Source: a virus. From it: a stretch of DNA of 64,000 bases. Each line of letters opens with the position of its first letter. The first letter of the stretch is position 1. Location of the stretch: positions 1-64,000 of the IMG/VR virus record IMGVR_UViG_3300018080_000099, one strand, 5' to 3'. A program made the translations under genes and the position numbers. Below, in pieces: positions 50,568-63,332 of the stretch. Under the pieces are notes generated by a model, which worked only from the letters and a program-made list of their open reading frames with translations, did not search any database and was not told where the DNA came from.

Positions 50568-50644
50568 TTTAATCGGTTAAACTAGAGACCAAGCTCCCCT
50601 TTGGTTCCCCGTGAGTCTCTTTCGTGACCCAAAGATGTTTCAGT
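50568..50644 (-). ncRNA. candidate small non-coding transcript from consensus - strand promoter (50651-50680), contains GGGGAACC / TTTAACCGATTAAA element
   Basis: promoter TTGACA-18-TATATT on - strand with no downstream ORF/ATG; conserved segment shared with 51064-51170 locus. Confidence 0.25.
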
Positions 50645-50733
50645 ACTAATAATATACAACATGGCAATGGGTTTGTCAATAGGAAAGTTGAACTTTCTGG
50701 TTAACCGCTTAACTAGATTTTTAAAAATAGAGC

Positions 50734-50762
50734 TTGACAATTCAGTACCGGGAATGTATATT
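50734..50762 (+). promoter_or_regulatory. consensus promoter TTGACA-17-TATATT + conserved leader CTGTACACTCAACAAAGGAGATGG
   Basis: gcttgacaattcagtaccgggaatgtatattat. Confidence 0.6.
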
Positions 50763-50791
50763 ATCTGTACACTCAACAAAGGAGATGGAGA

Positions 50792-51073
50792 ATGGGAAGC
50801 TTCAAAGAGGAATGGACCGAGGCGATGGAATGGTGGCAGGGACTGGGCGAGATGCCTAACATGTTTTATGGTGGCATGTTTGATGTAACTGCCAAGGTAC
50901 GTGAGATTGCTTCACGGCGACTCCAGTTGAGGCTGGCGGGCACTGGAGAGGGTATTGGTACATCGGATGTCAACCATGAGGTATTCAGCATTTACCGGGA
51001 GTACAAGGCTTCTGAGGCACCAAGTGTCCTTAGCTTTCTTGTTAGCATAAATGCGGAGTTAGAGGGGATTTAG
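50792..51073 (+). CDS. hypothetical protein (93 aa)
   Basis: ORF track; RBS AAAGGAGATGGAG. Confidence 0.55.
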   Translation: MGSFKEEWTEAMEWWQGLGEMPNMFYGGMFDVTAKVREIASRRLQLRLAGTGEGIGTSDVNHEVFSIYREYKASEAPSVLSFLVSINAELEGI

Positions 51074-51086
51074 CATCCCCTTTTTT
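51064..51086. terminator. rho-independent terminator (GGGGAUUUAGCAUCCCC + U6)
   Basis: stem-loop + T-run. Confidence 0.65.
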
Positions 51087-51170
51087 AAGTGTTTATTTAA
51101 CCGCTTAAATTGGAGGCCAGGTGGGGCCTTGGCTCCCCGGGGTCCCGTTCGGTTCCCAAGATGTTTCAGT
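51087..51170 (-). ncRNA. candidate small non-coding transcript from - strand promoter (51177-51205); contains GGGAACCGAACGGGACC and ATTTAACCGCTTAAAT
   Basis: consensus - strand promoter, no ORF, ends at bidirectional terminator. Confidence 0.25.
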
Positions 51171-51261
51171 ACATATAATATACATTACTGAACAGGTTTT
51201 GTCAAGCTCTTTTTTAATTTATTTTTACTTAATCGCTTAAATAAAAAAGTGTTAATTGCTA

Positions 51262-51290
51262 TTGACTTTTAAGTGAGCGTGATGTATATT
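51262..51290 (+). promoter_or_regulatory. consensus promoter TTGACT-17-TATATT driving leaderless mRNA
   Basis: tattgacttttaagtgagcgtgatgtatatt; ATG 7 nt after -10. Confidence 0.55.
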
Positions 51291-51296
51291 ATTGTC

Positions 51297-51458
51297 ATGG
51301 AAAAGAAAAGGTTTGAATTCGTAGACAGAACCGAAGCCAAGAGCGGCGAGGAAGCCAAGGCCAAGTATCCGTGGGCGACTACATGGGGCAAGGCTGTTGG
51401 TGGCTGGATGGTGTTCGAGAGCCAAGCCGACTTGGAGGAATGGAGGAGGAGCGGATGA
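51297..51458 (+). CDS. small protein (53 aa), probable leaderless start
   Basis: ATG 51297 lies ~7 nt downstream of -10; ORF track 51273 start is inside the promoter. Confidence 0.45.
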   Translation: MEKKRFEFVDRTEAKSGEEAKAKYPWATTWGKAVGGWMVFESQADLEEWRRSG

Positions 51459-51823
51459 GGTACAAGGATATGAAGGAGCGGTTCGGAGCCCATGCTCTGG
51501 CGGATGTAGACGTGAATCCGATGCGTGTTGTGGAGCATCAGCATTTCTCGAGTCCGTCAAGCCATGACTACCGGGGCGACGCCATTGATGAGTGTGTCCG
51601 GGAGAAGCTGGATTTTGCGTCCACCTGTAACGTGGTGTTTGAGATGGCGAAGCGGTATGTCAAGGTGAGCTGTCCGAAGTGCCGTCGCAACATGGAGAAC
51701 CGCGGCGGAGGCGGCAGTGGTACTGCAATCACCATTGATTACCACTGCAAGCATTGTGACATAGCCTTTGAGCTGTCGATGCAGTCGGATGGTATGTTCG
51801 TGTCGTTCCCTGAGAATGAATAA
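51455..51823 (+). CDS. zinc-finger protein (CPKC…CKHC)
   Basis: ATGA overlap, RBS GGAGGAG inside ORF 51371..51823. Confidence 0.5.
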   Translation: MRYKDMKERFGAHALADVDVNPMRVVEHQHFSSPSSHDYRGDAIDECVREKLDFASTCNVVFEMAKRYVKVSCPKCRRNMENRGGGGSGTAITIDYHCKHCDIAFELSMQSDGMFVSFPENE

Positions 51824-51901
51824 TGGGATGGAGCCGTTAAAACAACGGCTCTTTCCTTTAGTCTGAGCTTAACCGCTTAAATAAAAAAGCGCAAAAAGAC
51901 C

Positions 51902-51930
51902 TTGACATTTCAGTGCGGGTGATGTATATT
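51902..51930 (+). promoter_or_regulatory. consensus promoter + conserved leader
   Basis: ccttgacatttcagtgcgggtgatgtatattattggggtacttaacaaaaggagatgg; TTAACCGCTTAAAT 25 bp upstream. Confidence 0.6.
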
Positions 51931-51960
51931 ATTGGGGTACTTAACAAAAGGAGATGGTAC

Positions 51961-52395
51961 ATGAACATCACCCTCAAGAGTCTGAAGGTGTGCGAGTGGA
52001 ATTCAGAAGAAACCACTTGTTTCACAGCCACGATGTATGTGGACGGACAGAGAGTGTGCAAGGTTTCGAACGAAGGGCATGGTGGACCGAACATGTACAT
52101 GCCCGTGTACAATGAGTCTTTGTTGAAGAAGGCTCAGGATTTTGTTGGTGCGATTCCTTGCAAGGGATATTCTTTCAACCATGATTTGGATACGTGGTTG
52201 GGAGATGTCATGGAGAAGATGGAAGAGGAGAAGCAACTCAAGAGGTGGTGTCGCACCAAGATTGTTGCGAGAACCAAAGATGGCAAGAAGGGTTCTTATC
52301 TGGTGTGGAAGGGACAGTTCACACCGCAGGCGAAGGAAATCCTGCTCAAGAAGAATCCTGACATAGTGGAATTTGTCAACGAGAGATTCCTCTAA
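51961..52395 (+). CDS. hypothetical protein (144 aa)
   Basis: ATG after RBS AAAGGAGATGG inside ORF 51913..52395. Confidence 0.55.
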   Translation: MNITLKSLKVCEWNSEETTCFTATMYVDGQRVCKVSNEGHGGPNMYMPVYNESLLKKAQDFVGAIPCKGYSFNHDLDTWLGDVMEKMEEEKQLKRWCRTKIVARTKDGKKGSYLVWKGQFTPQAKEILLKKNPDIVEFVNERFL

Positions 52396-52513
52396 GACAT
52401 TATCCCTCGGCGGTTATAGTCGAGTTCATGGGTGCTGGGGAGTGCCCTTCGAACTATGGCTGCTCCGCCGGGGGATTCTTTTACGCTCTGTTTAAAATAC
52501 AGCTGGAATATTT

Positions 52514-52545
52514 GGGGCAAAGAGAAAGGGAGCCCGGAGGCTCCC
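52514..52545 (-). terminator. terminator for - strand 3-gene operon (GGGAGCCUCCGGGCUCCC + U-rich)
   Basis: stem-loop with U-rich tail on - strand. Confidence 0.55.
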
Positions 52546-52562
52546 ACCCTGCTCAAGGGTAA

Positions 52563-52814
52563 TTAGTCTAGTGGTTCGAGGTTGATGTCGTTTTGTCCCA
52601 TGACACCGTGAGCCAATTTGAATTCGAAGCTCAGGGCATGGAGATATTCGAGGATGCCGTCTTGCATGGCGGTAAGGCAGTCGACGGCATTTTGACAGCC
52701 GGGCTTACGCTCTTCTGTCTGTGCCAGTTCGTGGTACTTTTTGAACGCCTCAGCAGACTCGATGATGATAGTCGCTTTGTTGTTCAGTGTGTGTTGGATT
52801 TCGTCCTGCTTCAT
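52563..52814 (-). CDS. hypothetical protein (83 aa)
   Basis: internal ATG with RBS AAGGAGG inside ORF 52563..52850. Confidence 0.5.
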   Translation of the reverse strand: MKQDEIQHTLNNKATIIIESAEAFKKYHELAQTEERKPGCQNAVDCLTAMQDGILEYLHALSFEFKLAHGVMGQNDINLEPLD

Positions 52815-52831
52815 GAAGCCTCCTTGACAAC

Positions 52832-53035
52832 TTAGAACCAGCTGTCGCACACAAGGCAGTGGGATTGATTGTCAACCCTGAATGCCTTAATGTTGAATCG
52901 TACGTTGTCCCAGAAGCCCGGCTCGTCCTTTTTGTGGCAGTCCACAAGTTCGTGGGCTCCGCAGTGAGGACAAATCAGACAGCCGCAGGGCGTATCTGAT
53001 TCAACGACAACGATTTTGACTTGAGGTTCCGGCAT
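52832..53035 (-). CDS. zinc-ribbon protein (CGCLICPHCG…C…CLVC)
   Basis: ORF track. Confidence 0.5.
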   Translation of the reverse strand: MPEPQVKIVVVESDTPCGCLICPHCGAHELVDCHKKDEPGFWDNVRFNIKAFRVDNQSHCLVCDSWF

Positions 53036-53107
53036 GTCATCTCCTTGTGATATGGTAAAAGTTCCCCTGTAATATACAACAGGGGAACTTAAATGTCAAG
53101 CGATTTC

Positions 53108-53503: not shown

Positions 53504-53530
53504 ACCATCTCCTTGTTAAGGTACACACAT

Positions 53531-53559
53531 AATATACATCATGTGCGCTGAAAAGTCAA
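53531..53559 (-). promoter_or_regulatory. consensus promoter on - strand (TTGACT-17-TATATT)
   Basis: revcomp ccttgacttttcagcgcacatgatgtatattatgtgtgtaccttaacaaggagatgg. Confidence 0.55.
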
Positions 53560-53745: not shown

Positions 53746-53773
53746 TACTGTCAAAAGAAAGGAGACATGAAAA

Positions 53774-54388: not shown

Positions 54389-54450
54389 ATTACCATGAGA
54401 TTAAGAAACACCGATACAAACCCTTTTCACCTAACAGAAAGGAGCCACTC

Positions 54451-54624
54451 ATGAAGGCTCACAAAGTTGGCGCAATCAAGTACCGTTCACGTTCAGCCGC
54501 CGCGGTGGCGCTGGCAAAGCGGACGAACCTCAGCAACACCGAGATTGCCAAGAAGGTTGGCATGACTCCTCAGACGGTGTGTGCGGCTCTTCGCCGGGAG
54601 ATGCTCAAGGGTTACAACGACTAA
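54451..54624 (+). CDS. small HTH protein, family D (K.H..RSRS.AA…TEIAKKVGMTPQTV)
   Basis: RBS AAAGGAGCC; paralog of 54814, 57892 N-termini. Confidence 0.45.
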   Translation: MKAHKVGAIKYRSRSAAAVALAKRTNLSNTEIAKKVGMTPQTVCAALRREMLKGYND

Positions 54625-54813: not shown

Positions 54814-54981
54814 ATGAAGTCTTTCGACTACAGAGGCAAGAAGCACCGCAGCCGTTCACAGGCGGCGATGCAGATGCTCAAGCGGACGAAGCGCAGCCAG
54901 AGCGAAATCGCGCGCATCGTGGGCATCACTCCCCAGACTGTGAACGCAACCAAACGTATCCATAACCTCCGGGTAGCATAG
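54814..54981 (+). CDS. small HTH protein, family D (…RSRSQAA…SEIARIVGITPQTV)
   Basis: RBS AAAGGAGCC; inside ORF 54763..54981. Confidence 0.5.
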   Translation: MKSFDYRGKKHRSRSQAAMQMLKRTKRSQSEIARIVGITPQTVNATKRIHNLRVA

Positions 54982-54988: not shown

Positions 54989-55016
54989 GGGCCGGCTTGG
55001 TGCCCGGCCCTTTTTT
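54989..55016. terminator. terminator (GGGCCGGCUUGGUGCCCGGCCC + U6)
   Basis: stem-loop + T-run. Confidence 0.65.
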
Positions 55017-55077
55017 ACGCCCACCAGTTTAACCGCTTAAATAAAAGACCGAGCTGTCCGTTCACTGGCCTAACCAC
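55017..55077 (-). ncRNA. candidate small non-coding transcript from - strand promoter (55084-55112); contains GTGAACGGACAGCTCGGTC + TTTAAGCGGTTAAA
   Basis: consensus promoter without ORF; conserved element family. Confidence 0.25.
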
Positions 55078-55130
55078 ACTTATAATATACTAAAAAGGAG
55101 CTGACTTGTCAACCCCTTTTTAGCATTTTT

Positions 55131-55499: not shown

Positions 55500-56174
55500 A
55501 TGAACAAGTCCCAACAAGTCAGAGAATGGTTTGATACCGGCGTCATCGACATGAGCCCTGATAAGAAGTTGTGGGCTGCTACCAAGCTCGGCATGACGAT
55601 ACAGACGGTTCACGCAGCTCTGGTGAGACACACCAAGACGAACAACCCCACACAGCCAACAGTCCCCTCCCACACCGACTATGACATTAAGAATGTCATC
55701 AAAGGTAAGGTTGAGGATTGCCTTCAGATGGCAAGACAGGCAGGCTACCGTACCCCTTCAATTATAGATGTCAGATGGGACTTGAGGGGCAAAACCGCAG
55801 GGCAAGCATGTCACAGATTCACGGGTTCATACATCAGAGTCAACATGGTTCTAGCTCGGGAGAATCGGGAACACTACATTGCACAGACGGTTCCCCACGA
55901 GGTAGCACACATCATCGACCACTACCACAACGGTAGAAGCAGTGGACATGGACGCCCTTGGAAGCGAATCATGGAGCTTGCCTTCAGACGGCCGGCTGAC
56001 AGATGCCACTCTTACGACACCACCAACGCACGGGTTCGGACGTTGAGAAGATACCAATATGTATGTGACTGTGCCACCCCACACAACATCACGAGCATCA
56101 AACACAGAAGAATCCAGCTCGAAGGTGCCCGGTATATATGTAAGAGGTGCAGGGGAGTCCTGAGACTCCCCTGA
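55500..56174 (+). CDS. HTH + SprT-like zinc metallopeptidase domain protein
   Basis: N-terminal KLGMTIQTVHAAL (HTH, family D-like); HEVAHIIDH HExxH; C-terminal Cys pairs (YVCDC…CKRC) as in SprT family. Confidence 0.55.
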   Translation: MNKSQQVREWFDTGVIDMSPDKKLWAATKLGMTIQTVHAALVRHTKTNNPTQPTVPSHTDYDIKNVIKGKVEDCLQMARQAGYRTPSIIDVRWDLRGKTAGQACHRFTGSYIRVNMVLARENREHYIAQTVPHEVAHIIDHYHNGRSSGHGRPWKRIMELAFRRPADRCHSYDTTNARVRTLRRYQYVCDCATPHNITSIKHRRIQLEGARYICKRCRGVLRLP

Positions 56175-57379: not shown

Positions 57380-57892
57380 ATGGAACAAAAGTACATCTCA
57401 CTTGCGAATGATATGTTGACGTTTGCCAAGACATTGTTAGAACGTGATGGCGGACTTCAGCCTGTCGTGTTCATTCTCAAGGAGGGCTTTGCACCAGCTG
57501 TCGAGCAACTTGAGATTGTTGATGAAGCTCAGAAGGAGCAGATGTTTGTAGCTCTCGGATGTGCAGCGGCAAAATCCGACATCGACGCTTTACTCTTTAT
57601 CAATGAGGGGTGGCTCCGCCGGGTGGATGCCAGCCAGCTCGACAAGGATGACTTTCAATATGAGAGTCCATCCATGTACCCGGAGTCAATGAGGGAAGAA
57701 TGTATCGTAGCTACCTTGATTGACTTTAAGGAATCAAAGGGCTATTCCTCATTCACTATCTTTACAAGGGAGAATGGGTTTAAGTTCAAGGATTCGGACG
57801 GGTTTGATGAAGCCAAAGGAATGACAACGGAAGTTACGTTGAATGCATATAACCAAGCATCCGCTTTACTATCTCAACAGAAGGAGGACTAA
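57380..57892 (+). CDS. hypothetical protein (170 aa)
   Basis: ORF track. Confidence 0.5.
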   Translation: MEQKYISLANDMLTFAKTLLERDGGLQPVVFILKEGFAPAVEQLEIVDEAQKEQMFVALGCAAAKSDIDALLFINEGWLRRVDASQLDKDDFQYESPSMYPESMREECIVATLIDFKESKGYSSFTIFTRENGFKFKDSDGFDEAKGMTTEVTLNAYNQASALLSQQKED

Positions 57893-58398
57893 TGTCCAAG
57901 CAGTCGTTCACCCATGAAGGAACTGAGTATGGCTCACGTTCCGAAGCCGCACGGGCTCTGCTTTCGCAGACCAACCCGGAGACCAAAAAGCCGTACACCT
58001 GTTCGGAAGTCGCCAAGATTGTCGGGATGACTCCGCAGACCGTGTACACCCAGACGGACGAGGGCAAAGCGAAAGTCGCTGCTCGTCGTGCCAAGTACCG
58101 CGCCATCAACCTCGCCAAGACCGGCAAGTACACGCAGGCAATGATTTGCGACCGTACGAAGCTCGAAGCCGGTGTCATGCGGAAGCTCCTGACAGAAGCC
58201 AACATCACCTGTCCGACCGCCAAGGAACTCGCTCAGTCTCAGAAGGAAGCGGAAGAGGCGAAGGCGAAGGAAGCCGAAGCAAAGAAGGCTGAAAAGGCGA
58301 AGGCAAAGGAAGAAGTAGCTCCCGCCGCGGCAGAAAAGAACACCAGCAAGGGCAAGGGGAACTCCCGGAAGGCAAAGTCCAAAGCTGACAAAAAGTAA
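57892..58398 (+). CDS. HTH protein, family D N-terminus + histone H1-like KAKEAEAKK tail
   Basis: YGSRSEAARALL…SEVAKIVGMTPQTVY; C-terminal Lys/Ala/Glu repeats. Confidence 0.5.
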   Translation: MSKQSFTHEGTEYGSRSEAARALLSQTNPETKKPYTCSEVAKIVGMTPQTVYTQTDEGKAKVAARRAKYRAINLAKTGKYTQAMICDRTKLEAGVMRKLLTEANITCPTAKELAQSQKEAEEAKAKEAEAKKAEKAKAKEEVAPAAAEKNTSKGKGNSRKAKSKADKK

Positions 58399-58480: not shown

Positions 58481-58509
58481 TTGACATTCCAGCTGGAATG
58501 AATTATATT
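58481..58509 (+). promoter_or_regulatory. consensus promoter upstream of ORF-less conserved element
   Basis: cccttgacattccagctggaatgaattatatt. Confidence 0.5.
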
Positions 58510-58515: not shown

Positions 58516-58566
58516 AACCTCAGGGGTGGGAACGGCGACCGAGCACTCCAGTTTAAGCGCTTAACC
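58516..58566 (+). ncRNA. candidate small non-coding transcript: AAUAACCUCAGGGGUGGGAACGGCGACCGAGCACUCCAGUUUAAGCGCUUAAC
   Basis: promoter with no ATG/ORF; same conserved element as - strand loci at 60057-60151, 63212-63272, 61665-61724. Confidence 0.3.
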
Positions 58567-58584: not shown

Positions 58585-58613
58585 TTGACATCTCAGCTCG
58601 AATGAATTATATT
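58585..58613 (+). promoter_or_regulatory. consensus promoter + conserved leader
   Basis: gcttgacatctcagctcgaatgaattatattatctgtacattcaaaggagatg. Confidence 0.6.
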
Positions 58614-58637
58614 ATCTGTACATTCAAAGGAGATGAC

Positions 58638-59045
58638 ATGGCAATCACAAAGGATTTTCTCGGAGCAGGCAAGGCAATCTTCACGGTTGCGAATCCTCAC
58701 GGGAAACACTATACCTTCAAGATTCGTAAGAAGAAGGATATGCCCTACTTCGTTTCCCTGCTCACTGGTCCCGACAACTATGCTAACTATACCTACCTTG
58801 GTATATACATCCCTGCACATGCCGAAGTGCGGCTGAGCACCAAGAGCCGGTACAATGCAGAGTCCCTGCCTGTCAAGGTGGTTCGATGGGCTATTAAGAT
58901 GATACACGAGGGCAAAGAGTTGCCTGAGGGATATAGCATCCGGCACGAGGGCAAATGTGCTCGGTGTGGGCGGCGACTCACTGACCCGGTATCAATCGAA
59001 CGTGGTTTCGGTCCTGAGTGCTGGAGACGTTCTGTCAATAGCTAG
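58638..59045 (+). CDS. hypothetical protein with C-terminal CxRCGRRLTDPVSIERGFGPEC zinc motif
   Basis: RBS CAAAGGAGATG; inside ORF 58602..59045. Confidence 0.5.
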   Translation: MAITKDFLGAGKAIFTVANPHGKHYTFKIRKKKDMPYFVSLLTGPDNYANYTYLGIYIPAHAEVRLSTKSRYNAESLPVKVVRWAIKMIHEGKELPEGYSIRHEGKCARCGRRLTDPVSIERGFGPECWRRSVNS

Positions 59046-59064
59046 AAAAAAGTGAAAATAACTA

Positions 59065-59093: not shown

Positions 59094-59146
59094 ATTACCA
59101 TGATTGAAAGATGTTCAACCTTACCACTCAAAGAAAGGGGCCTCGT

Positions 59147-60013
59147 ATGATGGCTTCAAAGCTGAAAGTCTCGAATGCCAAGAGCATCGAGGAAGTTCTT
59201 GAGTCCACCGGGATGAACTGGGATGCGGAGTCGCACCCTCTCGTTACCGGCGGCGGACTGGATGTGCCGAACTTCAAGGCGATGGTGCGGAGTGACAATT
59301 CACATGTCCTCGGCGTTGTCGGTTCGAAGTATCAGCCTGTCCAGAATTCACTCGCCTTCGGTTTCATGGACACCCTTGTTCAGAAGCACGATGCCGAATA
59401 CGAGAATGTCTACAGCCTGAAGGGCGGCGCGTATGTGATTGTTCAGGCTCGCATCCATCACGACTTCGAAGCCCGGCGCGGTGACAGGATTGCTTCCTAC
59501 ATCACCATGCTGAATTCCTTCGATGGCACTACCTCTTTCAAGGTGTACTTCACCCCTATCCGCCTGTTCTGCACCAATCAGCTCGGTGCCTCATGGCGGA
59601 AGAAGGCACAGTCCATCACGGTTCGCCACTCGGTGAATGCGAAAGAGAATGCCGAAGAGGGTTTCCGGGTTCTCTGCTCGGCTCAGGAATACTTCGAACA
59701 GTTTCAGGAGAAGGCACGCGTGCTTGCTCAGAAGGCAGTCGACCAGAAGATGGTTGACAAATTCCTGAAGGAAGTTCTCGGTGAAGCCGAATCAACCCAG
59801 AAGAAGAACCAGCATGAGAAGGTGACGGAACTGTTCCAGCACGGCAAGGGCAACAAGGGCGAAACGATGTGGGACTTGTACAATGGCGTGACGGAGTATG
59901 TCGACCACCACGGCACGAAGGACGACGACAAGCGCCTTGCCTCGGCTCTCATGGGACACGGGCTCAACCTGAAGGACAAGGCTTGGAATGCGGCTCTTGC
60001 CCTGACAAACTAG
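59147..60013 (+). CDS. DUF932-like (TIGR03299 phage/plasmid-like) protein
   Basis: VSNAKSIEEVLESTGMNWD…AMVRSDNSHVLGVVGSKYQPVQN…MLNSFDGTTSFKVYFTPIRLFCTNQL resembles DUF932 conserved core; RBS AAAGAAAGGGG. Confidence 0.45.
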   Translation: MMASKLKVSNAKSIEEVLESTGMNWDAESHPLVTGGGLDVPNFKAMVRSDNSHVLGVVGSKYQPVQNSLAFGFMDTLVQKHDAEYENVYSLKGGAYVIVQARIHHDFEARRGDRIASYITMLNSFDGTTSFKVYFTPIRLFCTNQLGASWRKKAQSITVRHSVNAKENAEEGFRVLCSAQEYFEQFQEKARVLAQKAVDQKMVDKFLKEVLGEAESTQKKNQHEKVTELFQHGKGNKGETMWDLYNGVTEYVDHHGTKDDDKRLASALMGHGLNLKDKAWNAALALTN

Positions 60014-60056
60014 AACTCCTGACAAAGGGGAGGGGCAACCCTCCCCTCCACTTAAC

Positions 60057-60090
60057 AAAAGAGAACCGGGAATTCCCAGTTCTCTTTTTT
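60057..60090. terminator. bidirectional terminator (GAGAACCGGGAAUUCCCAGUUCUC flanked by A4/U6)
   Basis: stem-loop with T-run on both strands; second hairpin GGGGAGGGGCAACCCUCCCCUCC at 60027-60049. Confidence 0.65.
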
Positions 60091-60151
60091 GTCAGCCCCA
60101 GTTTAACCGCTTAAATTTTCGTGCTACCTCGCCGTTCCCACCCCTAAGGTT
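60091..60151 (-). ncRNA. candidate small non-coding transcript from - strand promoter (60158-60186): AAUAACCUUAGGGGUGGGAACGGCGAGGUAGCACGAAAAUUUAAGCGGUUAAACUGGGG then terminator
   Basis: consensus promoter, no ORF, ends at bidirectional terminator. Confidence 0.3.
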
Positions 60152-60211
60152 ATTTAAAATATAATACATGGCGAAGCAAAAGTCAATAGGAAAAATAAAT
60201 AAAATTAGCTA

Positions 60212-60240
60212 TTGACAATGGAGCTGAAATGTATTATATT
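60212..60240 (+). promoter_or_regulatory. consensus promoter (leaderless), divergent from - promoter 60158-60186
   Basis: ctattgacaatggagctgaaatgtattatatt. Confidence 0.55.
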
Positions 60241-60246
60241 ATTACC

Positions 60247-60459
60247 ATGATGATAAAATCAAAATACACAGGCAAAATGATAAAGGGTTCAGTCTCATTC
60301 TGGTATGGCTCACGGCTCATTGGAGAGGCAGTCGTATACGATGGTGAGGGAGTCCCTGAGGCATTCGAGAGAGAACGTAGGTACTGCGAGTATTTCAACA
60401 GGGAGGCACTGCCTTACCTGTTCCGGTACACCAATGCAATCAAACACGGATGGGAATAA
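60247..60459 (+). CDS. small protein (70 aa), probable leaderless start
   Basis: ATG 7 nt after -10; ORF track start 60229 lies in promoter. Confidence 0.45.
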   Translation: MMIKSKYTGKMIKGSVSFWYGSRLIGEAVVYDGEGVPEAFERERRYCEYFNREALPYLFRYTNAIKHGWE

Positions 60460-60570
60460 TGGCACGTAAAGGCAACGGAAACAAACCAGCTACAAAGGAA
60501 TGGGCTAAGCATCTTCGCAAGGCAGGCAAGCGGGATGCCAACAAGCGGCAGAGAAAAGCCAACAAAAGCC

Positions 60571-60599
60571 TTGACAATTAGTCCTGAATGTTGTATATT
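60571..60599 (+). promoter_or_regulatory. consensus promoter
   Basis: ccttgacaattagtcctgaatgttgtatatt. Confidence 0.55.
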
Positions 60600-60621
60600 A
60601 CCTGTAACAACAGGAGATGAT

Positions 60622-60798
60622 ATGAACCAGAACATAACTCAAGCCAAAGCCCAGCGGCTCCAAGACATCGCCAGTGCGAAGGCTTCGCACGAGCGGCAGG
60701 CACGCAGGGAGCAGCGGCGTATCAACCACGAGGATGTCAAGTTCCTTCAGGCGGCATTGGAGGCACCGGACGTCGAAACCTTTCTGAGGATAGTATGA
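60622..60798 (+). CDS. small protein (58 aa)
   Basis: RBS CAGGAGATG; inside ORF 60535..60798. Confidence 0.4.
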   Translation: MNQNITQAKAQRLQDIASAKASHERQARREQRRINHEDVKFLQAALEAPDVETFLRIV

Positions 60799-61067
60799 AC
60801 ATCAAATCAATCGAGTACCGCACTGTCGAAGTTCCCGAAGTGACGAAAGTCAAGTTCAGGAAGTTCCCGGAAGGCGACGTCATCGCCCTGTTCCCTGAGG
60901 AGGAAGCAGACCTGCGAGGCAACTGCATGTCCTACATGTGCATAGGACAGCACGGAGCAGCCAGCCCTGAGTTGATTGAGGAATTGACTCCTGCAACTCC
61001 AGCAGAATACAAGGCAATCAAAGAGGAACTGGAGCGCATCGGTTATCACCTTAGCGTGGAGCAATAA
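60795..61067 (+). CDS. hypothetical protein (90 aa)
   Basis: ATGA overlap. Confidence 0.5.
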   Translation: MNIKSIEYRTVEVPEVTKVKFRKFPEGDVIALFPEEEADLRGNCMSYMCIGQHGAASPELIEELTPATPAEYKAIKEELERIGYHLSVEQ

Positions 61068-61318
61068 TGACTTACGGAAAGATACTTGAAATCGAGGACT
61101 ACCTCGAACTGGACTGCAGGCTGTTCGTTAACGGTATCAGCGGGAAGCCAGCTCACAGCGACTCCTACATGACTGTACTGGAATACTCCCGGCTAGGTGA
61201 AGTCGACAAGTCAAGGTTCAGCCAGCAGGAGTGGCTGGAAGCCTGCGAGCACTGGCTATCCAATGTCAACTGCGGGCCGGCCCTGAAACTCTTTGCCAAG
61301 TGGTTCAAAAGAAAATAA
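61067..61318 (+). CDS. hypothetical protein (83 aa)
   Basis: TAATG overlap. Confidence 0.5.
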   Translation: MTYGKILEIEDYLELDCRLFVNGISGKPAHSDSYMTVLEYSRLGEVDKSRFSQQEWLEACEHWLSNVNCGPALKLFAKWFKRK

Positions 61319-61326
61319 AATAAGCC

Positions 61327-61355
61327 TTGACAACTCAGCCAGAATAAGGTATATT
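61327..61355 (+). promoter_or_regulatory. consensus promoter (leaderless)
   Basis: ccttgacaactcagccagaataaggtatatt. Confidence 0.55.
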
Positions 61356-61361
61356 ATTGGT

Positions 61362-61496
61362 ATGAAACAAGTAACCTTCAAAGAAATCAACGGGAGAAAG
61401 GTTCCCAAGTTCCGGGGCGGCAGGGTAACGGTTCGCTTCCGGGATAAGACAAAGTACTCCCGTAAACTCAAACACAAAGGAGTGCAGGATGGATAA
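61362..61496 (+). CDS. small basic protein (44 aa), leaderless
   Basis: ATG 7 nt after -10; in frame with ORF 61293..61496. Confidence 0.35.
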   Translation: MKQVTFKEINGRKVPKFRGGRVTVRFRDKTKYSRKLKHKGVQDG

Positions 61497-61650
61497 CCTG
61501 TTTGACGTTGACATGACAGAACTGAAGGACAACTCCCTTGCCGAAATCTTTCAATCAGACGGCGAGGACGGCAGCTGGGACGAGGACGGACGCTGGGATG
61601 ATGATGACTGGCTGGAACAGCAGGCGGCACTTTCCGCTGGGGACTATTAG
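61489..61650 (+). CDS. small acidic protein (53 aa; DGEDGSWDEDGRWDDDDW)
   Basis: ATG overlapping upstream stop; below cut-off. Confidence 0.35.
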   Translation: MDNLFDVDMTELKDNSLAEIFQSDGEDGSWDEDGRWDDDDWLEQQAALSAGDY

Positions 61651-61664
61651 TCCCCAGTTTTTTT
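61639..61664. terminator. terminator (GGGGACUAUUAGUCCCC + U7)
   Basis: stem-loop + T-run. Confidence 0.65.
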
Positions 61665-61724
61665 ACCCCTCAGTTTAAGCGCTTAAATAAATGACCGAGC
61701 TTGCCGTTCCCACCTCCCTCGGTT
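61665..61724 (-). ncRNA. candidate small non-coding transcript from - strand promoter (61731-61759): …UAACCGAGGGAGGUGGGAACGGCAAGCUCGGUCAUUUAUUUAAGCGCUUAAACUG
   Basis: consensus promoter, no ORF, conserved element. Confidence 0.3.
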
Positions 61725-61783
61725 AATTTAAATATACTTCATTTCAGCTCAAATGTCAATAGTTATTTTCATTTATTTTTCGC

Positions 61784-61812
61784 TTGACTTTTGAGCTGAA
61801 ATGTATTATATT
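61784..61812 (+). promoter_or_regulatory. consensus promoter + conserved leader
   Basis: cgcttgacttttgagctgaaatgtattatatttaagtacattcaacaaaaggagat. Confidence 0.55.
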
Positions 61813-61839
61813 TAAGTACATTCAACAAAAGGAGATAAC

Positions 61840-62091
61840 ATGGCGACTAAAAAATACAAGTGGTATGCTGCTGTTCGTTTTAAGCTGAGCAACCGTATAG
61901 GTTCACCCACTGCTATTTTTGTATGGGATAAGTTTAAAAACAAATGGATACACACATGTATGGCTACTCCTAAACCTCTTGCCTATACAACTGCTCGTCG
62001 TAAATGTATTGAAAGGAAGAAACTTGATAAACAGGTAAAAGGCTGGATTGTTATTCGCGAGGATGAATATGCAAGAAACGGGTTTAATTAA
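61840..62091 (+). CDS. hypothetical protein (83 aa)
   Basis: ORF track. Confidence 0.5.
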   Translation: MATKKYKWYAAVRFKLSNRIGSPTAIFVWDKFKNKWIHTCMATPKPLAYTTARRKCIERKKLDKQVKGWIVIREDEYARNGFN

Positions 62092-62099
62092 AAAAGCCC

Positions 62100-62128
62100 T
62101 TGACTTTTCAGTTCAAATGATGTATATT
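62100..62128 (+). promoter_or_regulatory. consensus promoter
   Basis: cccttgacttttcagttcaaatgatgtatatt. Confidence 0.55.
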
Positions 62129-62152
62129 ATTGGTATCAGAAAAGGAGGCAAG

Positions 62153-62737
62153 ATGGAATACAAAGGCTACACCATTGACATTGAGCAGGACTACTCTGCT
62201 GAGGACCCCCGCGACTGGGACAATCTCGGTACAATGATATGCTTCCACAAGCGCTATCAGTTGGGCGACAAGGGGCATGGAGTTGATACTAGCGATTATT
62301 CAGGCTGGGCTGAGATGGAAGCAGAACTTCGCAAAGAATATGCCGTTGTCCTTCCCCTGTACCTTTACGACCACAGCGGCATAACCATGAAGGTAACTCC
62401 CTTCTTTTGCCCTTGGGATTCCGGGCAAGTCGGCTATATCGTGGTAAGTCGCGAGACTATCCTGAAAGAGTATGGCGGCAGTCGCTTGACAAGTCAGAAA
62501 CTTGAGAAGGCGAAGTCGGTGCTCATTGGGGAAGTCGAGACTTACGACATGTACCTCTGCGGCGAAGTCTACAGTTACATGGTACCGGGACTGGCAGAGG
62601 AGGATGATAACTACGACTACATGTGCAGTGGCTACTACGGGCATGAGGAAGCAGTCAAGGCGGCAAAGGAAGTTATCGACTCATACATAGCCGCAAAGGA
62701 AAAGAACTGCGGCGTACAGCAGGAATTGGCTGTATGA
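62153..62737 (+). CDS. hypothetical protein (194 aa)
   Basis: RBS AAAAGGAGGCAAG; inside ORF 62048..62737. Confidence 0.55.
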   Translation: MEYKGYTIDIEQDYSAEDPRDWDNLGTMICFHKRYQLGDKGHGVDTSDYSGWAEMEAELRKEYAVVLPLYLYDHSGITMKVTPFFCPWDSGQVGYIVVSRETILKEYGGSRLTSQKLEKAKSVLIGEVETYDMYLCGEVYSYMVPGLAEEDDNYDYMCSGYYGHEEAVKAAKEVIDSYIAAKEKNCGVQQELAV

Positions 62738-62877
62738 AATTCTATTTCAAGTCCGAAGCCAGCCTTATTGGCGTAGCCCAGTTTGTTGAAGCGGATAGCA
62801 AGTCGGAAGCCGCTGAACACTTGGCTGACGTATACGGAATCACAAAGCAGGAAGCCACCGAACTATTGGAGGATTGA
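62734..62877 (+). CDS. small protein (47 aa)
   Basis: ATGA overlap; below cut-off. Confidence 0.35.
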   Translation: MKFYFKSEASLIGVAQFVEADSKSEAAEHLADVYGITKQEATELLED

Positions 62878-62943
62878 CAAATGATTGACGCTATCGGAAC
62901 TCTAACGGCTTTTGCACTCCTGTACTTTATTTTCAAATAAGCC

Positions 62944-62972
62944 TTGACAAGTCAGCTCCAATGATGTATATT
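62944..62972 (+). promoter_or_regulatory. consensus promoter + conserved leader
   Basis: gccttgacaagtcagctccaatgatgtatattattggcgtacttaacaaaggagccgagatgg. Confidence 0.6.
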
Positions 62973-62999
62973 ATTGGCGTACTTAACAAAGGAGCCGAG

Positions 63000-63182
63000 A
63001 TGGACCAAGAGATTCGCCAGCAGTTCCAGACCCTTGCCTGCCGACTTTCCCCTGAGAACCTTCACTGCGACGGGGAGATAAGCCACGCACAGGCGATGAA
63101 AAAGTACCGTGCCATCATGCGCGAATGGCGCCAGCTGGAAAAGAAGGTCGGACGCAAGGTTGACGAGTCCGAAGTCTGGTAA
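63000..63182 (+). CDS. small protein (60 aa)
   Basis: inside ORF 62961..63182; RBS AAAGGAGCC. Confidence 0.5.
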   Translation: MDQEIRQQFQTLACRLSPENLHCDGEISHAQAMKKYRAIMREWRQLEKKVGRKVDESEVW

Positions 63183-63188
63183 GTTCAA

Positions 63189-63211
63189 GGGGAGGCAACT
63201 CCCCTTTTTTT
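63189..63211. terminator. terminator (GGGGAGGCAACUCCCC + U7)
   Basis: stem-loop + T-run. Confidence 0.7.
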
Positions 63212-63272
63212 AAGCCCCCCAGTTTAACCGCTTAAATTTCTTTGCTACCTGTCCGTTCCCACCCGTGAGGTT
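63212..63272 (-). ncRNA. candidate small non-coding transcript from - strand promoter (63279-63307): AAUAACCUCACGGGUGGGAACGGACAGGUAGCAAAGAAAUUUAAGCGGUUAAACUGGGGGG
   Basis: consensus promoter, no ORF, conserved element. Confidence 0.3.
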
Positions 63273-63332
63273 ATTAAAAATATACTACATGCCGGCCGAA
63301 ATGTCAAGCTCTAATTTATTTTTATTTTCCTA

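What the first reader, a model, noticed from the sequence alone, without database searches (positions are those of the whole stretch)
50568..63307. Recurring ORF-less promoter cassettes predicting a family of small non-coding RNAs (GGTGGGAACGG core + TTTAAGCGCTTAAA palindrome)
Seven loci share the same architecture. One is on the + strand (58516-58566) and six are on the - strand (50568-50644, 51087-51170, 55017-55077, 60091-60151, 61665-61724, 63212-63272). Each has a perfect-consensus promoter (TTGACA-17-TATATT) followed not by an RBS or ATG but by about 50-90 nt of related sequence: (A)AUAACCUNAGGGGUGGGAACGGCGA… or GGGAACCGAACGG variants. Each ends with the palindrome UUUAAGCG(C/G)UUAAACUGGGG and then the bidirectional terminator of the neighbouring gene. 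Most are arranged back-to-back with a + strand promoter that drives a small protein gene. This conserved, repeated, promoter-driven element with no coding capacity looks like a family of phage sRNAs. It could also be a transcribed protein-binding or decoy element.
Basis: seen in the sequence. Interest (0 to 1): 0.7.

Follow-up and report, generated by a model that had tools for sequence, protein, structure and literature searches.

The report
Jumbo-phage non-coding promoter–RNA–palindrome cassettes
An uncultured ~260-kb phage carries at least eight copies of a conserved unit with no gene in it: a strong promoter, a short folded RNA and a strictly conserved DNA palindrome. This appears to be an undescribed non-coding RNA family joined to a protein-binding "boundary" site, and its function has not been tested.

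Summary
Seven consensus promoters in 50.5-63.3 kb, plus an eighth just past the window end, are followed by no credible ORF. Each is followed by 43-70 nt of related sequence ending in TTAAnCGnTTAA.

The cassettes are not a local oddity. About 45 distinct homologous cassettes occur in more than 20 metagenomic contigs from related large phages (GC 32-46%). None was found in bacterial genomes, GenBank phages or Rfam.

They fall into subtypes:
- Short subtype (c3-c7): a small, variable hairpin lies just before an invariant GAACGG, which sits exactly 17 nt from the palindrome.
- Long subtype (c1, c2, c8): two hairpins with clear compensatory changes and strand-specific G·U pairs.

This indicates selection on the transcribed RNA.

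The palindrome is not an RNA feature. It is a DNA site: 105 exact copies against 0.5 expected. It also occurs without any cassette, in untranscribed spacers, at -62 and -72 of gene promoters, after terminators and in arrays.

The cassettes mostly point against the direction of the genes and have no terminator of their own.

Best reading: these are early, abundant, short structured non-coding RNAs, probably protein-binding, bounded and regulated by an operator-like palindrome that a phage helix-turn-helix protein probably binds. The sRNA interpretation is partly supported. Function remains inferred.

The parts
50651..50679 (-). c1 promoter, TTGACA-N17-TATATT
50581..50644 (-). c1 leader RNA, long subtype: ACUGAAACAUCU, then hairpin 1, then the GGGGAAC..UGGUCUCU hairpin 2
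50569..50580 (.). Palindrome TTAATCGGTTAA, centred about +69.5 from the c1 start
50701..50712 (.). Stand-alone palindrome in the untranscribed spacer, centred -62.5 from both divergent promoters (50679- and 50734+)
51177..51205 (-). c2 promoter
51109..51170 (-). c2 leader RNA, long subtype
51097..51108 (.). Palindrome downstream of c2, centred +67.5. It is followed by the terminator of the convergent gene 50792-51073 (hairpin and T-run 51062-51086).
51229..51240 (.). Stand-alone palindrome between divergent promoters, centred -62.5 from the + promoter at 51262
51869..51880 (.). Stand-alone palindrome between the terminator at 51830-51852 and the promoter at 51902, centred -62.5
55084..55112 (-). 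c3 promoter
55041..55077 (-). c3 leader RNA, short subtype: hairpin UGGU-UAG-GCCA, then GU, then GAACGG (55058-55063)
55029..55040 (.). Palindrome centred +42.5 from the c3 start. It faces the terminator (54989-55016) of the helix-turn-helix operon.
58481..58509 (+). c4 promoter, the only + strand copy
58516..58552 (+). c4 leader RNA, short subtype, with GAACGG at 58530-58535
58553..58564 (.). Palindrome centred +42.5 from c4 and -61.5 from the tandem promoter 58585-58613, which drives the DUF6011 gene. The arrangement is conserved in L067.
60158..60186 (-). c5 promoter (TTGACT), back-to-back with the + promoter at 60212
60115..60151 (-). c5 leader RNA, short subtype: hairpin ACCU-UAG-GGGU, then GG, then GAACGG (60132-60137)
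60103..60114 (.). Palindrome centred +42.5 from c5. It is followed by the DUF932 gene terminators (60030-60052 and 60060-60091).
61731..61759 (-). c6 promoter, back-to-back with the + promoter at 61784
61687..61724 (-). c6 leader RNA, short subtype, with GAACGG at 61704-61709
61675..61686 (.). Palindrome centred +43.5 from c6, next to the + strand terminator 61636-61658
63279..63307 (-). c7 promoter, back-to-back with the + promoter at 63333
63236..63272 (-). c7 leader RNA, short subtype, with GAACGG at 63253-63258
63224..63235 (.). Palindrome centred +42.5 from c7, next to the + strand terminator 63187-63206
54451..54624 (+). 57-aa helix-turn-helix protein, a candidate palindrome binder. It is the best-conserved early protein across the related phages (55-67% identity). 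Paralogues lie at 54814-54981, at 57892-58398 and in the N-terminus of 55500-56174.
   Evidence: candidate only; binding is inferred

Best explanation
These are composite regulatory cassettes of the early region of an uncultured jumbo phage.

Proposed components:
- A host-type (sigma-70-like) early promoter transcribes a short non-coding RNA. The conserved part is about 45 nt in the short subtype and about 70 nt in the long subtype.
- The conserved module of that RNA is a small hairpin of variable sequence, followed immediately by G-GAAC(GG). In the long subtype a second, G·U-rich hairpin follows.
- Transcription then meets a strictly conserved DNA palindrome, RTTTAAnCGnTTAAAY.

Proposed roles:
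- The palindrome is a separate DNA-level site bound by a dimeric phage protein. The conserved small Cro/Xre-like helix-turn-helix proteins encoded next to the cassettes are the candidates.
- The palindrome marks transcription-unit boundaries. It sits at -62/-72 of gene promoters (the geometry of a class-I activator site), just after terminators, and at +42 to +69 of the gene-less promoters. At those downstream positions it most likely limits or regulates the short transcript as a roadblock.
- The RNA itself most likely works as an abundant early protein-binding element, acting as a decoy, sponge or recruitment site through the hairpin-GGAAC motif. Base-pairing regulation is less likely.

Shown here: the cassettes exist; they are conserved and multi-copy; the transcribed strand's structure is under selection; the palindrome is independent of the RNA, strictly conserved and positionally biased; the cassettes point against the direction of the genes; and they lack both ORFs and terminators of their own.

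Inferred: that they are transcribed, what defines the RNA 3' end, which protein binds the palindrome, and that the RNA binds a protein.
For: Reality and excess over chance:
- establish the promoters, palindromes and core motif.
- An eighth copy lies just beyond the window.

Conservation:
- A metagenome scan keyed only on promoter plus palindrome returned 67 loci. About 35 of them carry the same internal motifs.
- These loci share proteins with the window at 35-67% identity: HTH, SprT-HTH, DUF6011.
- The 50 or so chance hits of a looser IMG/VR scan carry none of the motifs.

RNA-level selection:
- Long subtype, helix 1: all 5 pairs show compensatory changes and 92.7% of cells are paired.
- Long subtype, helix 2: three consecutive G·U pairs, which would be mismatches on the other strand.
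- Long subtype overall: covariation 0.52 against 0.26 in shuffles (0 of 500) and 0.07-0.23 in slid controls.
- Short subtype: a hairpin of at least 4 bp ends 0-4 nt before GAACGG in 21 of 33 copies, against 5.8±2.0 in shuffles (0 of 1000). The stems differ, for example ACCU/GGGU, UGGU/GCCA, UGGG/CCCA, CUGGA/UUCAG and CAGA/UCUG.

Motif constraints:
- GAACGG is invariant and lies exactly 17 nt from TTAA in all 33 short-type copies.
- Every GAACGG-palindrome module has its own promoter, 24 of 24.

The palindrome as a DNA site:
- There are 105 exact sites against 0.5 expected. One-mismatch sites number 11 against 9.8 expected.
- Copies occur in untranscribed spacers between divergent promoters (50701, 51229, and 64750 beyond the window).
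- At least 17 sites are centred between -59.5 and -64.5 of promoters, and 5 between -70.5 and -72.5.
- Arrays occur with 14-31 bp spacing.

Candidate binder: the HTH profile weakly matches HipB/Xre-type dimeric operator binders (E=0.003; Pfam and PHROG HTH hits).

Orientation and ends:
- Cassettes run antisense to the direction of the genes in L042 (3 of 3), L061 (3 of 3), L076 (5 of 6) and the window region (5 of the 6 short-type copies; 7 of all 8 copies).
- They have no terminator of their own.

Not a known family: nothing in Rfam, no tRNA, nothing in GenBank phages, and only chance hits in 185,579 bacterial and archaeal genomes.
Against: - No expression data exist. Transcription and RNA ends are inferred from sequence.
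- For the short subtype, which is 5 of the 7 window copies, RNAalifold finds no consensus helix apart from the A/U palindrome. A column-pair scan finds only an invariant 3-bp CGG/UCG. Folding z-scores are weak, with a mean of -0.64.
- The rigid 17-nt spacing between GAACGG and the palindrome, and the invariance of both, would also fit a purely DNA-level bipartite protein site.
- The palindrome within cassettes is oriented: position 5 is G in 78% of copies while the symmetric position 8 is C in only 40% (p≈0.002). A simple symmetric operator does not predict this.
- The near-total absence of degenerate copies is stricter than is usual for operators. It might point to an enzyme recognition site instead, for example for nicking or recombination.
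- The helix-turn-helix assignment rests on co-occurrence and generic HTH similarity only.
- No RNA-binding partner has been identified.
Confidence: 0.5

Rival explanations
1. Classical trans-acting, base-pairing small RNAs. Each cassette would be a free-standing sRNA gene whose conserved single-stranded segment is a seed that pairs with host or phage mRNAs. The segment would be GAACGG and its flanks in the short subtype, and ACUGAAAYAUCU in the long subtype.
For: - Each cassette has its own strong promoter, no ORF and a structured RNA with covariation.
- The long subtype has an invariant 12-nt 5' segment, and GAACGG is invariant in the short subtype.
- An A/U-rich stretch followed by a hairpin lies downstream in 5 of 7 window copies, which resembles the layout of Hfq-type sRNAs.
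- Multi-copy paralogues with a conserved core and variable remainder are typical of sRNA families.
Against: - The cassettes have no canonical terminator with a U-tail on their own strand. Many family members have no downstream hairpin at all.
- About a third are leaders in tandem with a gene promoter.
- The window contains no complementary targets above chance for the long-type 5' segment: 12 hits against 8.6 expected, and the two exact ones are the elements themselves.
- A 6-nt invariant is short for a seed.
- The fixed 17-nt distance to a DNA palindrome has no role in this model.
Confidence: 0.15
2. The act of convergent transcription is the function, acting as antisense control, transcriptional interference or an insulator. 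In this model strong promoters fire against the direction of the genes at operon ends. They would block read-through into the next unit. They would also make RNA complementary to the 3' ends and terminator hairpins of neighbouring early mRNAs, notably the helix-turn-helix operon, and so tune their stability. The 5' hairpins would merely stabilise the transcript.
For: - Most cassettes point against the local coding direction.
- About half face the 3' end of a convergent gene, directly behind its terminator.
- The cassette strand lacks an efficient terminator, so read-through into antisense is expected.
- A cassette faces the helix-turn-helix operon in the window (c3), L053, L065 and L042/L049/L063. 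This holds even though the cassette subtype differs between them.
Against: - It does not explain the invariant GAACGG, its exact spacing to the palindrome, or the conservation of several distinct RNA folds.
- A third of cassettes point the same way as the next gene, in tandem.
- Tandem arrays of three cassettes exist in L060 and of two in L052.
Confidence: 0.15
3. A cis-acting leader that reprogrammes RNA polymerase, comparable to lambda nut/N, HK022 put or Q-type systems. The nascent hairpin-GGAAC RNA, possibly together with the protein bound at the palindrome, would load a factor onto the elongating polymerase or alter it directly. That would change termination downstream.
For: - The element lies immediately promoter-proximal and always has its own promoter.
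- It has one or two hairpins followed by a conserved single-stranded motif.
- Terminator hairpins lie downstream.
- The rigid spacing between the RNA motif and a DNA site suits a complex assembled during transcription.
- Small, very basic ORFs are nearby, for example 60459-60581.
- The resemblance to nut and put rests on general knowledge of those systems.
Against: - In most cases what lies beyond the terminator is the antisense strand of other genes, not a unit to be switched on.
- No N, Q or NusG-paralogue homologue was detected among the proteins scanned.
- In the tandem cases there is no terminator between the cassette and the gene.
Confidence: 0.08
4. A purely DNA-level module with no function for the RNA. 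It would be a repeated promoter-operator-terminator cassette, like the PeSL cassettes of T4-type phages, that spreads and shuffles small early genes by recombination. Alternatively it would be a promoter/sigma sink or a bipartite protein-binding site.
For: - The cassettes lie in a region of many tiny genes of unknown function, each with its own near-identical consensus promoter.
- PeSLs are likewise near-perfect sigma-70 promoters joined to stem-loops, concentrated in hyperplastic regions (PMC2839356, PMC4122927).
- GAACGG and the palindrome are invariant and rigidly spaced.
- The consensus RNA fold is weak in the short subtype.
Against: - Compensatory changes in hairpins, and G·U pairs that work only on the transcribed strand, show selection on RNA.
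- PeSL promoters drive ORFs, whereas these do not.
- The elements stay recognisable across phages whose proteins are only 35-65% identical. This argues for function rather than recent spread.
Confidence: 0.07
5. RNA decoys against a host defence, for example RNA anti-CRISPRs (solitary repeat units) that imitate a hairpin-plus-handle CRISPR repeat, or mimics of another defence RNA.
For: - They would be strongly expressed early, are multi-copy, and consist of a hairpin directly followed by a conserved 8-nt-like tail (G-N-GAACGG).
- Phage-encoded RNA anti-CRISPRs exist as promoter-driven solitary repeats (PMC10651486).
- Some repeat families end in ...GAAAC or ...GAAC (from memory, not tested).
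Against: - Hairpin stems differ between copies within one genome, whereas a mimic should match one host repeat.
- The conserved part is only 6-8 nt.
- The best resemblance I noticed, to the type I-F repeat, is on the non-transcribed strand. That comparison is from memory.
- No host or CRISPR repeat is available for comparison.
Confidence: 0.04

Closest known systems
PeSL (promoter-early stem-loop) cassettes of T4-type phages (PMC2839356, PMC4122927)
   Same: Both are repeated composite motifs of a near-perfect sigma-70 promoter next to a terminator-like stem-loop. Both are concentrated in a region of small, poorly conserved early genes.
   Different: PeSL promoters drive the next ORF. PeSLs have no conserved transcribed non-coding segment and no separate palindromic site. 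Here the promoter is gene-less, mostly points against the direction of the genes, and is followed by a conserved RNA and a palindrome.
Global-regulator operator networks of IncP plasmids: KorA OA (GTTTAGCTAAAC, seven sites) and KorB OB (TTTAGCGGCTAAA) (PMC2665229, PMC11790492)
   Same: Both are short A/T-armed palindromes with a G/C core. Both are present in many near-perfect copies on one replicon and sit at varied but preferred positions relative to promoters. In the plasmid case they are bound by small dimeric helix-turn-helix or ParB-type proteins that control many transcription units.
   Different: - The sequence differs (TTAAnCGnTTAA).
- No KorA, KorB or ParB homologue was detected; the HTH profile's best PDB match is HipB at E=0.003.
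- The preferred -62/-72 position looks like an activator site rather than a repressor site.
- There is no linked non-coding RNA in the plasmid system.
- This is an analogy, not a membership claim.
Lambdoid PR'-6S RNA-tR' units and nut/put leader RNAs (general knowledge)
   Same: Both involve a constitutive strong promoter followed by a short non-coding transcript and a terminator, and promoter-proximal RNA hairpins that act with protein partners.
   Different: The phage here has many copies per genome. The copies mostly face the wrong way to control downstream genes. No N or Q homologue was found, and the sequences are unrelated.
Phage and bacterial sRNA gene families with paralogous copies
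   Same: Both have their own promoter, no ORF, a conserved short motif with variable hairpins, and an intergenic position convergent with a neighbour.
   Different: These cassettes have no U-tailed terminator of their own and are rigidly coupled to a DNA palindrome. A third of copies are leaders of gene promoters. No Rfam family matches.
RNA anti-CRISPRs / solitary repeat units (PMC10651486)
   Same: Both are promoter-driven, non-coding, hairpin-containing phage RNAs expressed early.
   Different: No similarity to a known repeat was established. Hairpin sequences vary among copies, and the palindrome has no counterpart.

Membership tests
Any Rfam 15 RNA family | Covariance-model match at or near the gathering score | tested here: not met
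   There were 0 hits at gathering threshold over the window. At E≤5 over 50.4-64 kb there were only 4 weak hits, all far below their gathering scores, and none models the cassette. Related loci gave only tRNAs and spurious hits.
tRNA / tmRNA | ARAGORN-detectable cloverleaf | tested here: not met
   One search found 0 genes in the window.
Trans-acting (Hfq-type) sRNA gene | Own promoter and no coding capacity | tested here: met
Trans-acting (Hfq-type) sRNA gene | Own Rho-independent terminator with a 3' U-tail | tested here: not met
   Downstream hairpins are preceded by A-runs and followed by 0-3 U on the cassette strand. Many copies have no hairpin within 90 nt. No - strand terminator is called at the cassettes.
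Trans-acting (Hfq-type) sRNA gene | Conserved accessible seed with complementary targets | tested here: inconclusive
   Invariant segments exist. No excess of complementary sites was found in the window. The host is unknown, so host targets cannot be tested.
Structured RNA (generic) | Base pairs maintained by compensatory changes, above controls | tested here: met
   Long subtype. Short subtype, 5' hairpin only. Short-subtype core: not met.
PeSL cassette (T4-type) | Near-consensus sigma-70 promoter adjacent to a stem-loop, repeated in a hyperplastic region | tested here: met
   Definition taken from PMC4122927.
PeSL cassette (T4-type) | The promoter drives the adjacent ORF, and cassettes flank insertion/deletion breakpoints between close relatives | tested here: not met
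   The promoters are gene-less. Breakpoint association could not be tested because no closely related genome pair is available.
Dimeric-regulator operator / class-I-type activator site | Two-fold symmetric site, over-represented, at preferred helical-phase positions upstream of promoters | tested here: met
   There are 105 exact sites against 0.5 expected. At least 17 sites are centred at about -62 and 5 at about -72. Copies occur in untranscribed spacers and in arrays.
Dimeric-regulator operator / class-I-type activator site | A cognate DNA-binding protein binds the site | not testable with these tools
   Conserved helix-turn-helix paralogues co-occur with the sites. No binding data exist.
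nut/put/Q-type antitermination leader | Promoter-proximal RNA or DNA element upstream of terminators that gate co-oriented genes, plus an N or Q factor (not needed for put) | tested here: not met
   A promoter-proximal hairpin is present. However, the downstream units are mostly antisense, and no N or Q homologue appears in the scans.
RNA anti-CRISPR (solitary repeat unit) | Close sequence and structure match to a CRISPR repeat of the host | not testable with these tools
   The host is unknown and no repeat library is available. Variable hairpin stems among copies argue against it.
Type I toxin-antitoxin antisense RNA | Convergent small hydrophobic toxin ORF overlapping the RNA | tested here: not met
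   The convergent genes are helix-turn-helix, DUF932, acidic or other non-hydrophobic proteins.

The most novel reading that the evidence does not exclude
The cassette may be a bipartite control point that works during transcription. The nascent hairpin-GGAAC RNA and the DNA palindrome exactly 17 nt further on would be read together by a phage protein. A dimer parked on the palindrome would capture the RNA emerging from a stalled polymerase. This would create a new kind of protein-dependent terminator, insulator or loading site that partitions the early region of jumbo phages into units. Equally novel would be RNAs released there that act as high-copy decoys for a host defence or RNA-binding protein.
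Probability: 0.15. Interest if true: 0.85.

Novelty: new variant of a known kind. Interest (0 to 1): 0.62.

Why it matters
Non-coding RNAs and transcription-unit architecture of jumbo phages are known only for a few cultured Pseudomonas phages. Here sequence alone defines three things:
- a multi-copy RNA family that is under structural selection and absent from Rfam;
- an exceptionally strict palindromic site that organises the early region;
- a candidate regulator family.

All three are conserved across a clade of uncultured ~150-265-kb phages from sediments and other environments.

If the RNAs are decoys or polymerase-control elements, they would be a new early takeover or regulatory strategy. 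If the palindrome-protein pair is a boundary element, it would be a compact, portable insulator/activator part. The predictions can be tested directly with synthetic DNA, even though the phage is uncultured.

Tried and rejected
1. Known RNA families were searched with Rfam at gathering and at permissive thresholds, on the window and on related loci, and with ARAGORN. Nothing matched.
2. Small peptides were considered. Reading frames from GTG in the core differ between copies and lack Shine-Dalgarno sequences. The ORF lists show only artefactual or antisense ORFs. Rejected.
3. A single consensus fold for all seven copies was sought. Single-sequence folds disagree and z-scores are weak. RNAalifold on 28 short copies gives only the A/U palindrome. 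This was replaced by subtype-specific analysis.
4. The palindrome as an RNA hairpin was considered and rejected as the main role. Copies lie in untranscribed DNA and in arrays, and single-arm variants show no compensation.
5. Relatives were sought through the DUF932 neighbour gene. Homologues at 51-66% identity lie on unrelated low-GC phage contigs without palindromes. This was a dead end.
6. IMG/VR scans with strict core patterns gave 0 hits. A relaxed core pattern found one related 253.7-kb contig.
7. Bacterial and archaeal genomes gave 4 isolated chance matches. A host-derived element or prophage origin is therefore not supported.
8. GenBank phages gave no DNA or helix-turn-helix protein match.
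9. In-window targets complementary to the long-type 5' segment were not in excess.
10. A CsrC-like hit in L076 lies inside a helix-turn-helix ORF and is spurious.
12. Type I toxin-antitoxin systems, riboswitches (including NAD+ classes, given the phage's NAD genes), integron attC-like sites, R-loop replication origins and CRISPR-repeat mimicry were considered. All were set aside for lack of defining features, and the last three are only weakly excluded.

Full report
**1. What is in the window**

Reading 50.4-64 kb and scanning for TTGACA-N16-18-TATAAT-like sites shows an early-type region. It is packed with small genes, almost every one behind its own near-identical consensus promoter. The scan finds 48 promoter-like sites against 14.5±3.8 in shuffles, and 25 of them match 11 of 12 positions.

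Seven of these promoters have no Shine-Dalgarno sequence or start codon behind them and no credible ORF. Their coordinates are (-)50679, (-)51205, (-)55112, (+)58481, (-)60186, (-)61759 and (-)63307, given as the start of the -35 box.

Each is followed by 43-70 nt and then the palindrome TTAAnCGnTTAA. The palindrome occurs 10 times in the window against 0.26 expected, and all copies lie within 50.5-63.3 kb. The 11-mer GGTGGGAACGG is exact in four copies.

The source is a 263.8-kb metagenomic contig. Its extension past the window holds an eighth cassette at about 64.68 kb and two more palindromes. The contig looks like a jumbo phage:
- It has an NAD-dependent ligase, an HNH endonuclease, ATPases and DUF932.
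- A 998-aa protein is 44% identical to proteins of published huge-phage genomes.

**2. The copies are not all one type**

Alignment separates two subtypes.

- Short subtype (c3-c7). The leader is about 43 nt and the palindrome is centred at +42.5 or +43.5.
- Long subtype (c1, c2, c8). It starts with GUACUGAAACAUCU, and the palindrome is centred at +65.5 to +69.5.

The hairpins downstream of c2, c3, c5, c6 and c7 are the terminators of the convergent + strand genes. On the cassette strand they are preceded by an A-run and followed by only 0-3 U. c4 and c8 instead run into a second promoter that drives a gene. 'Ends in a bidirectional terminator' is therefore only partly right.

**3. Relatives**

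Several routes led nowhere:
- Searching through the neighbouring DUF932 gene reached unrelated phages.
- Strict DNA patterns found nothing in IMG/VR.

One metagenome scan asked only for a consensus promoter followed 42-71 nt later by the palindrome. It returned 67 loci. About 35 of them contain the same internal motifs, although these were not part of the query.

Evidence that these loci are real relatives:
- Their GC content ranges from 32 to 46%.
- They encode homologues of the window's helix-turn-helix proteins (55-67% identity), the SprT-HTH protein, the DUF6011 protein and others.
- The arrangement 'cassette, tandem promoter, DUF6011 gene' is conserved in L067.
- Several contigs carry many copies. 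L076 has at least 6 in 13 kb, L061 and L042 have 3 each, L060 has three in tandem about 106 bp apart, and L052 has two.

Negative results for other collections:
- A relaxed core pattern found only four isolated chance matches in 185,579 bacterial and archaeal genomes, and one related 253.7-kb contig in IMG/VR.
- The roughly 50 chance hits of a looser IMG/VR scan contain neither the core nor extra palindromes, so they serve as a negative control.
- GenBank phages have nothing similar.
- Rfam has no match.

**4. RNA or DNA?**

*Long subtype.* In an unfitted MAFFT alignment of 11 distinct copies, RNAalifold predicts two helices.
- In helix 1 all five pairs show compensatory changes (GC, AU, UA and CG types), and 92.7% of cells are paired.
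- Helix 2 (GGGG-A-ACYA...UGGU-CUUC) uses three consecutive G·U pairs. These would be C·A mismatches on the other strand.
- It also shows an A-U to G-C exchange in the window's own c2.
- The covariation score is 0.52, against 0.26±0.04 in shuffles (0 of 500 reach it) and 0.07-0.23 in slid controls.

This is good evidence for selection on the transcribed RNA.

*Short subtype.* The picture is mixed.
- The 3' 45 columns of 28 copies align without a single gap.
- GAACGG is invariant and lies exactly 17 nt before TTAA, in 33 of 33 copies when later ones are included.
- RNAalifold finds no helix there except the A/U palindrome.
- A scan of all column pairs finds only an invariant 3-bp CGG/UCG.
- Folding z-scores average -0.64.
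- Immediately upstream, however, a small hairpin of at least 4 bp ends 0-4 nt before GAACGG in 21 of 33 copies, against 5.8±2.0 in shuffles (0 of 1000). Its stems differ between copies: ACCU/GGGU in c4, c5 and c7; UGGU/GCCA in c3; and UGGG/CCCA, UGGC/GCCA, CUGGA/UUCAG and CAGA/UCUG elsewhere.

The long subtype has the same layout, with hairpin 1 followed by (C)GGGGAAC. The common module is therefore 'variable hairpin followed by G-GAAC'. Every GAACGG-palindrome module has its own promoter, 24 of 24.

*Further RNA types.* A third type ('...GAGUCnGUYCGGCCCACC') and a fourth (an 85-nt 'AGGGUGGC...' RNA) occur in relatives. Both have the same promoter and end in the same palindrome.

**5. The palindrome is a DNA element in its own right**

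In 156 kb of related sequence there are 105 exact TTAAnCGnTTAA sites against 0.5 expected. One-mismatch variants are no more frequent than chance, 11 against 9.8. That is an unusually strict site.

Where it occurs:
- Without any cassette, in the untranscribed spacers between divergent promoters. Window 50701 is centred -62.5 from both promoters. The others are 51229 and, beyond the window, 64750.
- Between a terminator and the next promoter (51869).
- In arrays with 14-31 bp spacing (L026, L035, L056, L061).
- Flanking promoter-less hairpin modules (L067).

Relative to promoters it is strongly peaked. At least 17 sites are centred between -59.5 and -64.5, and 5 between -70.5 and -72.5, which is one helical turn further out. 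This is the geometry of class-I activator sites (general knowledge of CRP-type activation).

Its flanks extend the symmetry to RTTTAAnCGnTTAAAY. Within cassettes it is nevertheless oriented: position 5 is G in 78% of copies, while the symmetric position 8 is C in only 40% (p≈0.002, on sequences that are not independent).

Candidate binders are the small helix-turn-helix paralogues at 54451, 54814 and 57892 and the N-terminus of the protein at 55500.
- They are the best-conserved early proteins in the clade.
- They hit generic HTH families.
- As a profile they weakly match HipB/Xre-type dimeric operator binders (E=0.003).
- A cassette faces the 3' end of the helix-turn-helix operon in the window (c3), L053, L065 and L042/L049/L063, even though the cassette subtype differs.

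Binding itself is inference.

**6. Orientation and ends**

Cassettes mostly point against the local coding direction:
- L042, 3 of 3;
- L061, 3 of 3;
- L076, 5 of 6;
- the window region, 5 of the 6 short-type copies, or 7 of all 8 copies.

About half face a convergent gene's terminator. About a third are followed 18-31 nt after the palindrome by another promoter and a gene. None has a convincing terminator of its own.

**7. Interpretation**

The data fit a composite cassette best. An early promoter makes a short structured non-coding RNA whose hairpin-GGAAC module is the conserved, probably protein-recognised, part. A DNA palindrome bound by a phage dimer marks unit boundaries. It is activator-like at -62/-72 and roadblock-like at +42 to +69, so it both limits the short RNA and serves the neighbouring promoter. 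I give this about 0.5.

Rivals, with my estimates:
- a classical base-pairing sRNA, 0.15;
- convergent transcription as the function itself (antisense control or insulator), 0.15;
- a nut/put/Q-like leader that controls the polymerase, 0.08;
- a purely DNA-level PeSL-like module, 0.07;
- a defence decoy such as an RNA anti-CRISPR, 0.04.

The rigid 17-nt spacing, the invariance of both motifs and the orientation bias of the palindrome are not fully explained by any of these. They motivate the more novel reading, in which a protein reads the nascent RNA and the DNA site together.

**8. Comparison with known systems**

- At the DNA level the closest analogues are the PeSL promoter-stem-loop cassettes of T4-type phages (PMC2839356, PMC4122927). 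PeSL promoters drive ORFs and have neither a conserved RNA nor a palindrome.
- For the palindrome network the closest analogues are the KorA (GTTTAGCTAAAC, seven sites) and KorB (TTTAGCGGCTAAA) operators of IncP plasmids (PMC2665229, PMC11790492). These are similar in style and copy number, but no homologous protein was detected.
- At the RNA level the cassettes resemble paralogous sRNA families and lambdoid PR'/nut/put leaders in layout. They fail defining features of each, as set out in the membership table.

I therefore rate this a new variant of known kinds: a phage non-coding RNA family combined with an operator network, rather than a member of any described family.

**9. Verdict**

The sRNA interpretation is partly supported: an RNA under selection, yes; a free-standing base-pairing sRNA with the palindrome as part of its fold, no. 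Function is inferred, and there are no expression or binding data. Interest is 0.62.

Noticed in passing
window 54389-54453, 59094-59150, 60241-; beyond the window about 64822: A second family of leaders starts 'ATTACCATGA...' right after the -10 box, so an ATG lies about 7 nt from the predicted start with no Shine-Dalgarno sequence. At 54395 and 59100 this opens short ORFs of 19 and 16 aa whose stop codon (TGA) overlaps the ATG of the main gene (the HTH gene and DUF932). These look like leaderless upstream ORFs translationally coupled to the main gene.
   Followed up: no
window 54451-54624, 54814-54981, 57892-58398, 55500-55640: Four paralogous helix-turn-helix domains share the motif 'RSRS.AA..L.RT..S..EIA..VGMTPQTV'. 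One is fused to a SprT-like metalloprotease. Another carries a Lys/Ala/Glu-rich, histone-like tail. The 57-aa form is the best-conserved early protein across related phages.
   Followed up: partly
window 50763-50790, 51931-51960, 58614-58638, 61813-61839, 62973-63000, 63362-63388, 63673-63701: Gene-driving promoters share a nearly identical 5' UTR ('ATTGGTACATTCAACAAAGGAGAT') as well as conserved spacer bases ('CAGCTnnAATGATGTATATT'). The whole promoter-UTR unit, not just the hexamers, is therefore repeated.
   Followed up: no
L060 855-1160, L061 3930-3640 (-), L035 2650-2340 (-), L067 10967-11070, L084 5733-5964, L107 860-700 (-) and 8140-8236: A promoter-driven structured RNA of about 85 nt is conserved in related phages ('AGGGUGGC[variable hairpin]GCCAUCAGAAGAGGCCAUGGGCAAGGGUAGCCCGCCAGGUCGGA'). 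In three phages it is followed by 3 promoter-less modules, each ending in the same palindrome, and then by cassette arrays. It has no Rfam match and is absent from this window.
   Followed up: partly
L035 about 2240-2190 (-), L060 1505-1560, L061 3490-3440 (-), L026 1270-1600; window-end extension about 64560-64575: Arrays of TTGACAA/TTGTCAA boxes (sequences like the -35 box) occur without matching -10 boxes, spaced about 13-40 bp apart, often right after cassette arrays. They may be a second protein-binding repeat, or decoys for sigma region 4.
   Followed up: no
window 1705-1733 and 1974-2002: Two promoters 269 bp apart have an identical 29-nt sequence (TTGACATTCCCTTGTGCAGATGTTATATT). This is a local duplication of a promoter unit upstream of the NAD-dependent ligase gene.
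   Followed up: no
window 2046-3995, 15511-16683; L004 14459-15019 and 19202-20179 (beyond the window): The phage has an NAD+-related gene set: an NAD-dependent DNA ligase, a nicotinamide phosphoribosyltransferase-like protein, a PnuC-type NMN transporter and an AAA_28 (NadR-like) protein. A distant relative by the DUF932 gene (L008) carries NAD synthase, a nucleotidyltransferase and a NUDIX protein.
   Followed up: no
window about 40000 and about 50000: Cumulative GC skew and coding strand switch at about 40 kb and back at about 50 kb. The two long-type cassettes (c1, c2) sit exactly at the 50-kb divergence point between leftward and rightward genes.
   Followed up: no
L067 7137-7218 and 7904-8069: In a related phage, two palindromes flank a strong 58-nt hairpin with no promoter, between a terminator and the next promoter. 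Two tRNA genes lie about 700 nt further on in the same early region.
   Followed up: no
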